Assembly (NCBI RefSeq): GCF_009914755.1 | Contig: NC_060947.1 | Origin: the human T2T-CHM13v2.0 reference genome, Homo sapiens | Strand: one strand, 5' to 3' | Length of the DNA: 64,000 nt | Part shown: positions 13,192-19,195 of the stretch, piece by piece | Numbering within the stretch: the stretch's first letter is position 1 | Layout: each line of letters opens with the position of its first letter | Notes under the pieces: generated by a model | The model's database searches: none | Told to the model about the DNA's origin: nothing | What the model saw: only the letters and a program-made list of their open reading frames with translations | Program-made: the position numbers and the translations under genes

Positions 13192-13512
13192 GGCCAGGCA
13201 CAGTGGCTCACGCCTGTAATCCCAGCACTTTGGGAGGCCGGGGTGATTTGATCACCTGAGGTCAGGAGTTCAAGACCAGCCTGGCCAACATGGTGAAACC
13301 CCGTCTCTACTAAAAATACGAGAATTAGCTGGGCATGGTGGCAGGCGCCTGTAATCCCAGCTACTCTAGGGGGGCTGAGGCAGGAGAATCGCTTGAATCC
13401 AGGAGGCGGAGGTTGCAGTGAGCCAAGATGGTGCCACTGTACTCCAGCCTGGGCAACACAGCAAGACTCTGTCTCAAAAAAAAAAAAAAAAAGAAAAAGA
13501 AAAAGAAAAAGG
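13192..13512 (+). mobile_element. Alu (AluS-type); 5' parent of the duplication junction
   Basis: Full-length; TSD aagaaaacaataaca / aagaaaacaacaaca. Confidence 0.95.
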
Positions 13513-14051
13513 AAAGAAAACAACAACAAATAGGTCATTTTAAAATTTGGTATTTTAAGGAATCTTTAAGGTGGTTCTTGTTGTTGACCATTTCTGTTTT
13601 GGGTGTGATTTTTCAAATGTCCAGGTAGGTTCTGAAATTTAAATTTGTTAAATTAGCGCCAGTTGAGCTCGCTCATCAGTTGGCCTGGCTCATGATAATC
13701 AGATTTATAGGAGGCTCACTTACAAATCAGATCATGAGTTTATTCATTTATACGCACCCTACCATATACCTCCCAGAGCACCAGGTTCACTTGCTTTCTG
13801 CCCTCCCTTCCCACTAAAGTAAGGTTGAATTAAGTTCAAATAATTGGCTGATAAACACTAGATTCAAAAAGAGGGAACTGTATGGTTTTAATAAGATTAT
13901 TAATTTGTGGTACCCCAGTAAGCTCACTGCTCACAAAAATATCTGCCTCGCTCAAGGGGTCAGTGCATTCAGAGCAAGCCTCTTCCTTGATGGTGCTGGG
14001 AGACCCTGAAAGACTATCCTGATCAACACCTCATTAAGGATTTCATTCAAC

Positions 14052-14355
14052 GGCCGGGCGCAGTGGCTCATGCCTGTAATCCCAGCACTTTGGGAGGCCG
14101 AGGCGGGTGGATCACGAGGTCAGGAGATCGAGACCATCCTGGCTAACATGGTGAAACCTCGTCTCTACTAAAAATACAAAAAATTAGCTGGGCGTGGTGG
14201 CGGGCGCCTGTAGTCCCAGCTACTCGGGAGGCTGAGGCAGGAGAATGGCGTGAACCCAGGAGGCGGAGCTTGCAGTGAGCCGAGATGGTGCCACTGCACT
14301 CCAGCCTGGGTGACAGAGCAAGACTCCATCTCAAAAAAAAAAAAAAAAAAAAAAG
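14052..14355 (+). mobile_element. AluY (copy 1)
   Basis: gagatcgagaccatcctggctaac, gaatggcgtgaacc and ggagcttgcag AluY diagnostics. Confidence 0.95.
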
Positions 14356-15484
14356 ATTTAGTTCCAATGTTAGCCTGTGGCTATTAGGGGCCTTCCAATC
14401 ACCAACTGATCTTGATTCCCATTAGCAAAGATGGACTCTTACGCAAAATAATAATAATAATAATAAAAAGTAAGTTATTTGCTCATTCCTGAACCAAATA
14501 CAGTGGCCAAAGGGATGAAATGTGCCGATTGTCCAAGCCCGGGGTTCTCAACCACCTCTAGGATGAGTCCTGCTCCCCAACAAATCAACAAATCATAAGT
14601 CCTGAGGAAGGGCAGAGCTCCTTCAATGGAAAAGAATGAAGACTGGATGGTAGGCAGGCAAATAAAAGAACAACAGCAACAATAATAGTAATAGATGTCC
14701 ACTATACCAAATTTATGGTTGTAATTCTTGACCACACTCCTCTCACCAGTTCAGAGTCTGTTTCAGCAGGTAGGGTGGCATGGGCACCAATCATAGTACA
14801 ATAATGAACTGTTGATTCCTTCTGGGGAGAAAAAAAAAAACACAAACTGAAACAGGATGTTGGAATAGGCTAATGGCTTGACTTCATTTCAATACTTTTA
14901 ATACTGACCTTTCTGTTTGCCTTTTAGCCTGTTTCATTTTTTACCTAGTTCCTGTTATCCCAGAAGCGCCGTATCTGAAAGACAATATGACAACTTAATA
15001 AAACAAATCATAATTATGAAAGTCCTCTGTGCATTGGTTTAAGGATTAAAATGTCAAATTTCAAATGTTGATGGGTTCACATGATTTGTGCCTGATGAAG
15101 ATAGTAGAGTTAGAAGAGCAGGCAGAGTTGTGAGAATCAAGGAGTCTGGGACATGACATGAGGGACCAACTCCCAGCTAATATAAGGAGCCTGTCCCCTC
15201 ACTGTTTGAGGCTAGAATTTGGGCAAGAAGAGAAGGAATTCTGTAACTGCAGTTACAAACTTGATTCCAATTGAGGTTTTGCCACTTACTAGTAATGCAG
15301 CCCATGGCGAAGTTAATGAGAAGTAATAACACCATTTCTTAAGCTGATTCTGTACCAAGTGCTTTAAGCTTTATGAGAACCTTGGAGGGGATGTATCATT
15401 AAATCCCTTTTATCAAACCCTATCAGTGGCAAGACATGTAATCAATTTAATAATAGCTTTATAGGGTAATGCTTTACAAGACAT

Positions 15485-15815
15485 AGGCAGCCAGGTGCAG
15501 TAGCTCACGCCTGTAGTTCCAACACTTTGGGAGGCCAAGGCAGGAGGACGGCTTGTTGCCAGGAATTCCAGATGTTGCCAGGAATTCCAGACCAACCTAG
15601 GTAACATAGTGAGACCCTGTCTCTTTTTAAAAAAAAAAAAATTAAATTAGCCTGGTGTGGTGGCACATGCCTGTAGTCCCAGTTACGGGGGAAGTGGAAG
15701 TGAAAGGATTGCTTAAGTCTAGGAGGTCAAGGCTGCAGTGAACCGAGATCACGCCACTGCACCACAACCTGCATGGCAGAGCGAGATCCTGTCTCAAAAA
15801 AGAAAAAAAATAAAA
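15485..15815 (+). mobile_element. AluJ-type (copy 1) with an internal 19-bp tandem duplication
   Basis: Old Alu; tgttgccaggaattccaga repeated twice. Confidence 0.88.
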
Positions 15816-15875
15816 AAGAAGACATAATCAATTATAAAACACAACTCAATTTCAAACATTAAAATAAGAAGGGAA

Positions 15876-16195
15876 GGCCAGGCACGGTGGCTCACGCCTG
15901 TAATCCCAGCACTTTAGGAGGCCGAGGCAGGTGGATCACAAGGTCAGGAGTTCGAGACCAGCCTGGCCAACATGGTGAAATGCCATCTCTACTAAAAATA
16001 CGAGAATTAGCTGGGCATGGTGGCAGGCGCCTGTAATCCCAGCTACTCTAGGGGGGCTGAGGCAGGAGAATCGCTTGAATCCAGGAGGCGGAGGTTGCAG
16101 TGAGCCAAGATGGTGCCACTGTACTCCAGCCTGGGCAACACAGCAAGACTCTGTCTCAAAAAAAAAAAAAAAAAGAAAAAGAAAAAGAAAAAGGA
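15876..16195 (+). mobile_element. Chimeric Alu at the duplication junction
   Basis: Left part matches the Alu at 18884 (tttaggagg, gaaatgccatc); right part matches the Alu at 13192 (tacgagaattag, ctctagggggg). Confidence 0.93.
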
Positions 16196-16733: not shown

Positions 16734-17035
16734 GGCCGGGCGCAGTGGCTCATGCCTGTAATCCCAGCACTTTGGGAGGCCGAGGCGGGTGGATCACGAG
16801 GTCAGGAGATCGAGACCATCCTGGCTAACATGGTGAAACCTCGTCTCTACTAAAAATACAAAAAATTAGCTGGGCGTGGTGGCGGGCACCTGTAGTCCCA
16901 GCTACTCGGGAGGCTGAGGCAGGAGAATGGCGTGAACCCAGGAGGCGGAGCTTGCAGTGAGCCGAGATGGTGCCACTGCACTCCAGCCTGGGTGACAGAG
17001 CAAGACTCCATCTCAAAAAAAAAAAAAAAAAAAAA
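16734..17035 (+). mobile_element. AluY (copy 2)
   Basis: Duplicate of the 14052 element. Confidence 0.95.
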
Positions 17036-18021
17036 GATTTAGTTCCAATGTTAGCCTGTGGCTATTAGGGGCCTTCCAATCACCAACTGATCTTGATTCC
17101 CATTAGCAAAGATGGACTCTTACGCAAAATAATAATAATAATAATAAAAAGTAAGTTATTTGCTCATTCCTGAACCAAATACAGTGGCCAAAGGGATGAA
17201 ATGTGCCGATTGTCCAAGCCCGGGGTTCTCAACCACCTCTAGGATGAGTCCTGCTCCCCAACAAATCAACAAATCATAAGTCCTGAGGAAGGGCAGAGCT
17301 CCTTCAATGGAAAAGAATGAAGACTGGATGGTAGGCAGGCAAATAAAAGAACAACAGCAACAATAATAGTAATAGATGTCCACTATACCAAATTTATGGT
17401 TGTAATTCTTGACCACACTCCTCTCACCAGTTCAGAGTCCGTTTCAGCGGGTAGGGTGGCATGGGCACCAATCATAGTACAATAATGAACTGTTGATTCC
17501 TTCTGGGGAGAAAAAAAAAAACACAAACTGAAACAGGATGTTGGAATAGGCTAATGGCTTGACTTCATTTCAATACTTTTAATACTGACCTTTCTGTTTG
17601 CCTTTTAGCCTGTTTCATTTTTTACCTAGTTCCTGTTATCCCAGAAGCGCCATATCTGAAAGACAATATGACAACTTAATAAAACAAATCATAATTATGA
17701 AAGTCCTCTGTGCATTGGTTTAAGGATTAAAATGTCAAATTTCAAATGTTGATGGGTTCACATGATTTGTGCCTGATGAAGATAGTAGAGTTAGAAGAGC
17801 AGGCAGAGTTGTGAGAATCAAGGAGTCTGGGACATGACATGAGGGACCAACTCCCAGCTAATATAAGGAGCCTGTCCCCTCACTGTTTGAGGCTAGAATT
17901 TGGGCAAGAAGAGAAGGAATTCTGTAACTGCAGTTACAAACTTGATTCCAATTGAGGTTTTGCCACTTACTAGTAATGCAGCCCATGGCGAAGTTAATGA
18001 GAAGTAATAACACCATTTCTT

Positions 18022-18334
18022 TTTTTTTTTTTTTTTTTTTTTTTTTTTTTTTTGAGACGGAGTCTCGCTCTGTCGCCCAGGCTGGAGTGCAGTGGCGCGA
18101 TCTCGGCTCACTGCAAGCTCCGCCTCCCGGGTTCACGCCATTCTCCTGCCTCAGCCTCCCGAGTAGCTGGGACTACAGGCGCCCGCTACCACGCCCGGCT
18201 AATTTTTTGTATTTTTAGTAGAGACGGGGTTTCACCTTGTTAGCCAGGATGGTCTCGATCTCCTGACCTCGTGATCCACCCGCCTCGGCCTCCCAAAGTG
18301 CTGGGATTACAGGCGTGAGCCACCGCGCCCGGCC
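18022..18334 (-). mobile_element. Very young AluY insertion
   Basis: Only 3 differences from AluY consensus by eye, CpGs nearly all intact, ~34-nt pure T tail, perfect TSD aacaccatttctt 18009-18021 / 18335-18347. Confidence 0.97.
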
Positions 18335-18492
18335 AACACCATTTCTTAAGCTGATTCTGTACCAAGTGCTTTAAGCTTTATGAGAACCTTGGAGGGGATG
18401 TATCATTAAATCCCTTTTATCAAACCCTATCAGTGGCAAGACATGTAATCAATTTAATAATAGCTTTATAGGGTAATGCTTTACAAGACATA

Positions 18493-18825
18493 GGCAGCCA
18501 GGTGCAGTAGCTCACGCCTGTAGTTCCAACACTTTGGGAGGCCAAGGCAGGAGGACGGCTTGTTGCCAGGAATTCCAGATGTTGCCAGGAATTCCAGACC
18601 AACCTAGGTAACATAGTGAGACCCTGTCTCTTTTTTAAAAAAAAAAAAATTAAATTAGCCTGGTGTGGTGCCACATGCCTGTAGTCCCAGTTACGGGGGA
18701 AGTGGAAGTGAAAGGATTGCTTAAGTCTAGGAGGTCGAGGCTGCAGTGAACCGAGATCACGCCACTGCACCACAACCTGCATGGCAGAGCGAGATCCTGT
18801 CTCAAAAAAGAAAAAAAATAAAAAA
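18493..18825 (+). mobile_element. AluJ-type (copy 2)
   Basis: Duplicate of the 15485 element. Confidence 0.88.
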
Positions 18826-18883
18826 GAAGACATAATCAATTATAAAACACAACTCAATTTCAAACATTAAAATAAGAAGGGAA

Positions 18884-19195
18884 GGCCAGGCACGGTGGCT
18901 CATGCCTGTAATCCCAGCACTTTAGGAGGCCGAGGCAGGTGGATCACAAGGTCAGGAGTTCGAGACCAGCCTGGCCAACATGGTGAAATGCCATCTCTAC
19001 TAAAAATACAAACATTAGCTGGGCTTGGTGGCGGGTGCCTATAGTCCCAGCTACTTGGGAGGCTGAGGCAGGAGAATTGATTGAACCCGGGAGGCGGAGA
19101 TTGCAGTGAGCCGAGATGGTGCCACTACACTCCAGCCTGGGTGACAGAGCGAGACTCCATCTCAAAAAATAAATAAATAAAATAAAATAAAATAA
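18884..19195 (+). mobile_element. Alu (AluS-type); 3' parent of the duplication junction
   Basis: Full-length; TSD aaaataagaagggaa / aaaataagaagtgaa. Confidence 0.95.

What the first reader, a model, noticed from the sequence alone, without database searches (positions are those of the whole stretch)
13192..19195. Recent 2,682-bp tandem duplication made by Alu-Alu unequal crossover, with the breakpoint readable
Seen: three direct Alus at 13192, 15876 and 18884. The middle one carries the left arm and upstream flank of the 18884 Alu and the right arm and downstream flank of the 13192 Alu. The switch lies in the shared 16-mer tctctactaaaaatac (13304 / 15986 / 18994). The copies differ at about 9 positions by eye (~0.3%), mostly CpG transitions. 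Known: this is the signature of Alu/Alu-mediated rearrangement. Inference: lineage-specific and possibly a polymorphic CNV.
Basis: partly seen in the sequence, partly recalled or inferred. Interest (0 to 1): 0.7.

Follow-up and report, generated by a model that had tools for sequence, protein, structure and literature searches.

The report
Alu-made tandem duplication, later Alu insertion
A 2.7-kb stretch of non-coding DNA on the human X chromosome is present twice, head to tail, joined through a hybrid of two Alu repeats, and only the second copy holds a further very young Alu that likely jumped in afterwards; this is a clear but ordinary example of a well-known kind of rearrangement.

Summary
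Confirmed, with one omission. Copy 1 is 13304-15985 (2,682 bp). Copy 2 is 15986-18993 (3,008 bp), because it also carries a 326-bp young AluY insertion with a 13-bp target-site duplication that the finding does not mention. The middle Alu is a clean chimera: 15 of 16 informative columns left of the 16-bp shared tract match the 18884 Alu, 26 of 26 to the right match the 13192 Alu, and its flanks come from two different target-site duplications. The copies differ by 9 substitutions (7 CpG transitions) and two 1-bp homopolymer indels. This is a textbook Alu/Alu-mediated rearrangement. 'Unequal crossover' is not shown: the parent Alus are 85% identical with a longest perfect run of 26 bp, so a replication template switch is at least as likely. 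'Recent, possibly polymorphic' is weak: 0.34% divergence suggests a human-lineage event a few million years old (rates recalled), more likely fixed. No other human or ape assembly could be checked. No gene or annotated element lies in the unit. Interest is low.

The parts
13177..13191 (+). Left target-site duplication (TSD) of parent Alu A; its partner is 13514-13528 (14 of 15 identical)
13192..13513 (+). Parent Alu A (intact original insertion), donor of the right part of the chimera
13304..13319 (+). 16-bp shared tract (Alu positions 113-128, end of left monomer and A-rich linker, 25% GC); left edge of the duplication
13304..15985 (+). Copy 1 of the duplicated unit, 2,682 bp (CHM13 chrX:43,847,304-43,849,985); about 907 bp of it is Alu
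14052..14354 (+). Older AluY inside the unit, present in both copies (second copy 16734-17035); 14 of 25 CpGs intact here and one fewer in copy 2, so it long predates the duplication
15328..15340 (.). Empty target site in copy 1 (one copy of the 13-mer; L1 endonuclease-like TT/AAGA on the minus strand)
15490..15810 (+). Old diverged Alu with an internal 19-bp tandem repeat (15554-15591), present in both copies (18497-18818; repeat at 18561-18598)
15876..16195 (+). Chimeric junction Alu: left part and upstream TSD (15861-15875) from Alu B, right part and downstream TSD (16196-16210) from Alu A; switch inside 15986-16001
15986..18993 (+). Copy 2 of the unit, 3,008 bp (CHM13 chrX:43,849,986-43,852,993)
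18009..18347 (-). Young full-length AluY insertion in copy 2 only: 281-bp body 18054-18334, 32-A tail, perfect 13-bp TSD (18009-18021 and 18335-18347); one difference (a CpG transition) from the majority of 30 sister copies
18884..19203 (+). Parent Alu B (intact original insertion) with its own TSD pair 18869-18883 and 19189-19203 (14 of 15 identical); shared tract at 18994-19009

Best explanation
The 2,682-bp segment between two direct, 85%-identical Alus is duplicated head to tail through a chimeric Alu, likely because a stalled or broken replication fork in the right-hand Alu switched template to the left-hand Alu and re-copied the segment, and a young AluY likely retrotransposed into copy 2 afterwards. 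Shown by sequence: the tandem copies, the chimera, the 16-bp switch tract, no added bases at the junction, the swapped TSDs, and the filled and empty Alu sites. Inferred: template switching rather than meiotic crossover; an age of a few million years on the human lineage; duplication before Alu insertion; neutrality. That the origin is Alu/Alu-mediated is near certain (about 0.97). The confidence below is for the whole scenario.
For: Chimera: within the Alu body, 15 of 16 informative columns left of the tract are B-type and 26 of 26 to the right are A-type. The one exception (15895/18903) is a CpG-to-TpG change in B, best read as later decay. A and B each keep a matching 15-bp TSD pair; the middle Alu has B's left one and A's right one. 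Parent identity is 85.3%, longest perfect run 26 bp. PMC9675761 (passages) gives a median Alu junction homology of 15-16 bp and median similarity of 82.2% for homology-driven Alu events, and says this is too short for NAHR (>100 bp). PMC13041450 (passages) reports a mean of 20 bp and argues for FoSTeS/MMBIR. Single-strand annealing yields deletions, not duplications (own knowledge). Order: CpG change is 7 of 172 site-lineages in the duplication (4.1%, 95% CI 1.6-8.4), against 16 of 1,026 sites (1.6%) in 27 sister copies of the young Alu and 1 of 48 in this copy.
Against: A final sequence cannot separate template switching from crossover. No templated insertion or junction-proximal mutation cluster was seen: the copies are identical over 13304-13966 and differences are not clustered (P=0.62). 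A 16-bp tract needs no microhomology preference: about 30-33% of exchange points placed at random along A/B fall in a run of 16 bp or more. PMC13041450 also says NAHR contributes to common alleles and warns against attributing AAMR to MMBIR alone. The CpG intervals for duplication and young Alu touch, and the sister set is biased young because it was selected for a perfect 66-mer. All absolute ages rest on recalled rates, and CpG-only and non-CpG-only clocks disagree (about 10-12 versus 1.1-1.4 Myr).
Confidence: 0.55

Rival explanations
1. Old meiotic or mitotic unequal crossover (homeologous NAHR) between Alu B on one chromatid and Alu A on another, resolved inside the 16-bp tract; the young AluY inserted later.
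For: Gives exactly the same product: full-length chimera, homologous register, no scar. Tract length fits random resolution along the aligned Alus. PMC9675761 notes that NAHR dominates earlier genome-wide studies.
Against: Only 85% identity and a 26-bp longest perfect run, against the >100 bp quoted for NAHR. No patchy heteroduplex tract apart from one site explained by CpG decay.
Confidence: 0.3
2. Recent exchange between two different X homologues, one already carrying the young Alu. Copy 1 and copy 2 are then two former alleles frozen side by side, the 9 differences are mostly old allelic differences, and the duplication could be a young polymorphic CNV.
For: Geometry allows it: copy 1 and copy 2 would come from different chromosomes. 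Derived CpG changes are split evenly (4 in copy 1, 3 in copy 2). With high local CpG mutability and high assumed diversity, P(9 or more differences) reaches 0.13.
Against: Over the other assumed values P is 0.003-0.07. Recalled GRCh38 gene coordinates put the EFHC2-FUNDC1 interval only about 0.5 kb shorter than in CHM13, not 3 kb, which would mean that GRCh38 also has the duplication; this is recall and one search found none of those numbers in print.
Confidence: 0.12
3. Non-homologous origin (end joining, or an L1-endonuclease nick in the A-rich Alu linker followed by repair) that happens to join two Alus.
For: The tract covers the A-rich linker and is AT-rich (25% GC), unlike the median 57% GC at Alu junction homologies. 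The linker resembles an L1 endonuclease site (own knowledge).
Against: The join is in exact homologous register with 16 bp of identity and no added bases. Non-homologous events have a median homology of 1 bp and nearly 96% are under 5 bp. A nick could start the event without changing its class.
Confidence: 0.02
4. Assembly artefact: two alleles or duplicated reads merged in tandem.
For: None found. Raw reads could not be examined.
Against: CHM13 is essentially homozygous (own knowledge). The copies differ by 9 substitutions with a natural CpG-decay spectrum and by an Alu with a perfect TSD, and the junction is a base-exact chimera.
Confidence: 0.01

Closest known systems
Alu/Alu-mediated rearrangement (AAMR); homology-type transposable element-mediated rearrangement (TEMR-HR) duplications (PMC9675761, PMC13041450; passages read)
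   Same: Direct Alu pair, one full-length chimeric Alu, 16-bp junction homology (published median 15-17 bp), parent identity 85% (published median 82%), kilobase size (published median for TEMR duplications 1,085 bp). PMC9675761 lists 29 Alu duplications in three genomes.
   Different: Those catalogues hold polymorphic or pathogenic events; this one appears older and is intergenic. The junction tract is AT-rich (25% GC against a 57% median). One copy has gained a later Alu.
Classical NAHR between segmental duplications
   Same: Direct repeats flank the duplicated segment and the junction is in homologous register.
   Different: The substrates are 300-bp, 85%-identical Alus with no perfect run above 26 bp. 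The two new 99.7%-identical copies, with perfect runs up to 663 bp, could themselves now serve as NAHR substrates.
Alu recombination-mediated deletions between human and chimpanzee (PMC2041999; search listing only)
   Same: Lineage-specific chimeric Alu left by recombination between neighbouring Alus.
   Different: Those are deletions; this is the gain.
Young AluY (Yc-lineage) insertions by L1 target-primed reverse transcription
   Same: Full length, pure A tail, perfect 13-bp TSD, TT/AAGA site, near-zero divergence from sister copies; 54 loci in CHM13 share the 66-mer that spans its two distinguishing bases.
   Different: It sits in one of two paralogous copies, so filled and empty sites lie on one chromosome. 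The subfamily name is recalled (A at 148 = Yc1 lineage; with A at 98 possibly Yc2) and was not verified.

Membership tests
AAMR / TEMR-HR duplication | Two directly oriented, independently inserted Alus bound the segment | tested here: met
   Alus at 13192 and 18884, each with its own 15-bp TSD pair
AAMR / TEMR-HR duplication | One full-length chimeric Alu at the junction, switching in homologous register | tested here: met
   15 of 16 B-type columns, then 26 of 26 A-type columns in the Alu body
AAMR / TEMR-HR duplication | Junction microhomology of 5 bp or more, no inserted bases | tested here: met
   16 bp, no insertion; published medians 15-17 bp
AAMR / TEMR-HR duplication | Chimeric Alu lacks a matching TSD pair | tested here: met
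   Left flank is B's TSD, right flank is A's TSD
AAMR / TEMR-HR duplication | Single-copy ancestral allele exists in an outgroup or another haplotype | not testable with these tools
   Only the CHM13 assembly is held, with no relatives
Classical NAHR / unequal crossover | >100 bp of perfect identity between substrates | tested here: not met
   Longest perfect run 26 bp, identity 85.3%; threshold from PMC9675761
Classical NAHR / unequal crossover | Reciprocal deletion or recurrent events with the same substrates | not testable with these tools
   No population data available
MMBIR / FoSTeS | Complexity at or near the junction (templated insertions, further switches, clustered new mutations) | tested here: inconclusive
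   None seen; simple template switches need not leave any (own knowledge)
Segmental duplication | At least 1 kb and at least 90% identical (definition from own knowledge) | tested here: met
   2,681 aligned bp, 9 substitutions
Polymorphic CNV | Copy number varies among human haplotypes | not testable with these tools
   No pangenome. Supplement searches with estimated coordinates found no matching locus and are weak negatives
L1-driven Alu insertion (TPRT) | TSD, A tail, endonuclease-type site, empty site known | tested here: met
   13-bp perfect TSD, 32-A tail, TT/AAGA, empty site in copy 1
AluYc2 (name recalled) | Published diagnostic positions | tested here: inconclusive
   A at 98 and A at 148 set it apart from two older AluY copies in the window; the defining paper was not held and searches gave no definition

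The most novel reading that the evidence does not exclude
The two copies are two deeply diverged X haplotypes (one possibly archaic) joined in tandem by a recent inter-homologue Alu exchange, so one chromosome permanently carries both alleles of an Alu presence/absence polymorphism, and the duplication still segregates in living humans.
Probability: 0.1. Interest if true: 0.5.

Novelty: new member of a known kind. Interest (0 to 1): 0.2.

Why it matters
Biologically little: the unit is intergenic (about 97 kb from the EFHC2 start and about 77 kb from FUNDC1 by the supplied gene table), has no annotated functional element, and has no Rfam match. It is useful as a fully readable, internally ordered record: old Alus, then duplication, then a young Alu. 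There is one practical point (inferred). A filled and an empty Alu site lie 2.7 kb apart on the same chromosome, so PCR or short-read genotyping would call carriers heterozygous, even males, and the 9 paralogous differences could appear as false X-linked SNPs. The near-identical copies could also revert to one copy or expand by true NAHR.

Tried and rejected
CpG excess as a sign of duplication-induced hypermutation. Seven of 9 differences at CpG is unlikely at a 10-20x CpG rate (P 0.001-0.025), but the two older AluY copies examined in this window show a 37x ratio (24 CpG-site against 3 other changes), under which P=0.15. The test was post hoc with n=9, so it is not claimed. Gene conversion tracts: no clustering of differences (longest gap 692 bp, P=0.62). 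Dispersed or Y-linked copies: none. Structured RNA: 0 Rfam matches in 12000-20500. Coding potential: three ATG-ORFs of 80-137 aa in the 5.7-kb region, none annotated, not followed up. Literature on the locus: no paper for Alu-mediated + tandem duplication + EFHC2; listings show none about this locus by title or abstract start. Supplement searches used 5-digit prefixes of coordinates estimated from recalled offsets: PMC9675761, 0 hits in 5 files with 1 file unreadable; PMC4666360, 0 hits in 10 files with 4 not searched; PMC8846365, no locus hit in its 1 file, which names chrX only once. These are weak negatives. Rows dropped: 3 of 30 sister Alus (L008, L016, L018, 5'-truncated); only 30 of the 54 loci were fetched.
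Full report
OBSERVATION. A self-comparison of the window gives two top hits, 13191-15340 against 15875-18021 (99.0%) and 15328-16197 against 18335-19204, far above all Alu-Alu matches. A global alignment of 13304-15985 with 15986-18993 has 2,681 aligned columns, 9 substitutions, two 1-bp homopolymer indels and one 326-bp insertion in copy 2. Seven substitutions are CpG transitions (4 derived in copy 1, 3 in copy 2), one is another transition and one a transversion. Exact 60-mer direct repeats in the window occur only at the offsets of this duplication. 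Two non-Alu stretches of the unit match only these two places in the 3.1-Gb assembly; that search skips common words, so it speaks only for close copies.

THE JUNCTION. Aligning the three Alus: within the Alu body the middle element follows B (18884) at 15 of 16 informative columns left of the tract and A (13192) at 26 of 26 to the right, with no added bases. The single exception (15895 C, 18903 T) is a CpG transition in B and is one of the 9 differences. A new test: A and B each have a matching 15-bp TSD pair (14 of 15 identical), whereas the middle Alu has B's left TSD and A's right TSD. A and B are therefore the original insertions, the middle one is the recombinant, and the event was a gain from an ancestral A-segment-B.

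WHAT THE FINDING LEAVES OUT. Copy 2 holds a reverse-strand full-length AluY (body 18054-18334, 32-A tail, perfect 13-bp TSD, TT/AAGA site); copy 1 holds the empty site. An exact 66-mer spanning its two distinguishing bases occurs at 54 loci in the assembly, against 0 for the reversed control. Of these, 30 were fetched. The window copy differs from their majority at one CpG. Among the 27 full-length sisters (3 truncated rows dropped), 13 have no difference outside the 66-mer and the mean is 0.85 over 215 sites. It belongs to a very young subfamily. I recall this as the Yc lineage, possibly Yc2, but the defining paper was not held and searches did not supply the definition.

MECHANISM. A and B are 85.3% identical; the longest perfect runs are 26, 20, 17 and 16 bp, and the junction uses the fourth. 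About 30-33% of randomly placed exchange points would fall in a run of 16 bp or more, so the tract length does not discriminate. PMC9675761 (passages) reports a median Alu junction homology of 15-16 bp, 82.2% similarity for homology-driven Alu events, and 29 Alu duplications in three genomes, and says such homology is too short for NAHR (>100 bp). PMC13041450 (passages) reports 0-74 bp (mean 20) and favours FoSTeS/MMBIR, while saying that NAHR contributes and that MMBIR alone is an oversimplification. I commit to a replication template switch (0.55 for the whole scenario) over old unequal crossover (0.30). The product is the same, and no MMBIR scar was found here.

AGE. Divergence is 0.34% (95% Poisson 0.15-0.64%). 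With recalled pedigree mutation rates this is 3.6-4.5 Myr (1.6-8.5), but CpG-only and non-CpG-only clocks disagree (about 10-12 versus 1.1-1.4 Myr, with intervals that barely meet). With recalled human-chimpanzee divergence, 30-37 differences would be expected and 9 are seen (24-30%; P at most 1e-5). That points to the human lineage unless gene conversion has kept the copies alike; no clustering was seen (P=0.62). Internal clocks need no recalled rate. The older AluY in the unit lost 11 of 25 CpGs before the duplication and one more, in one copy, after it. CpG change per site and lineage is 4.1% (1.6-8.4) in the duplication and 1.6% in the young subfamily (biased low). Nine differences between two ordinary X alleles have P 0.003-0.13 over assumed diversities of 0.04-0.08%. 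So the event is likely older than most human polymorphism and the Alu likely came later, but capture of two diverged alleles is not excluded (0.12).

FIXED OR POLYMORPHIC. Not testable here: no other human or ape assembly is held. From recall only, the GRCh38 interval between EFHC2 and FUNDC1 is about 0.5 kb shorter than in the supplied CHM13 table (180.5 kb), which would mean GRCh38 also has the duplication and perhaps lacks the young Alu. One search found none of those numbers in print, so this carries little weight. Supplement searches with estimated coordinates were blank (unreadable files listed under Tried and rejected). Keyword searches showed no paper on it by title or abstract start. 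It may well be in SV or segmental-duplication tracks that I could not query.

FUNCTION. No gene or RefSeq functional element (supplied table), no Rfam match, about a third Alu. Most likely neutral (inference). The apparent CpG excess was tested and is not claimed.

VERDICT. A real, cleanly readable Alu/Alu-mediated tandem duplication with a probably later Alu insertion: a new member of a known kind, interest 0.2. PMC6071635 and PMC2041999 were seen as search listings only.

Noticed in passing
window 21722-22775: Local inverted duplication: arms of about 176 bp (21722-21768 plus 22078-22204, against 22600-22775), 167 of 176 columns identical, 395-bp spacer. The left arm is interrupted by an AluY (21769 to about 22075, 9-bp TSD). 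The arms have no close copies elsewhere in the assembly, so they are not the ends of a common transposon; only a short stretch of the spacer is a dispersed repeat.
   Followed up: partly
window 16734-17035, 18022-18334, 18884-19188: The young reverse-strand Alu forms inverted pairs with the AluY about 1 kb to its left (95% identical) and with Alu B about 550 bp to its right (89%); inverted Alu pairs can be unstable (own knowledge).
   Followed up: partly
window 15554-15591 and 18561-18598: A perfect 19-bp tandem repeat inside the old Alu, present in both copies and so older than the duplication.
   Followed up: partly
window 4048-4648, 8687-9290, 43961-44619, 60896-61570: Several head-to-tail Alu pairs, and a run of Alu monomers at 63540-63850.
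   Followed up: no
G000:C20:37696123-37696487: Two exact matches of the young-subfamily 66-mer lie 299 bp apart: a head-to-tail pair of very young Alus elsewhere in the genome.
   Followed up: no
window 14052-14332, 21769-22049, and Alus A and B: Four neighbouring Alus share G in place of C at about Alu position 236, and the two older AluY copies show almost only CpG-site changes (24 against 3).
   Followed up: no
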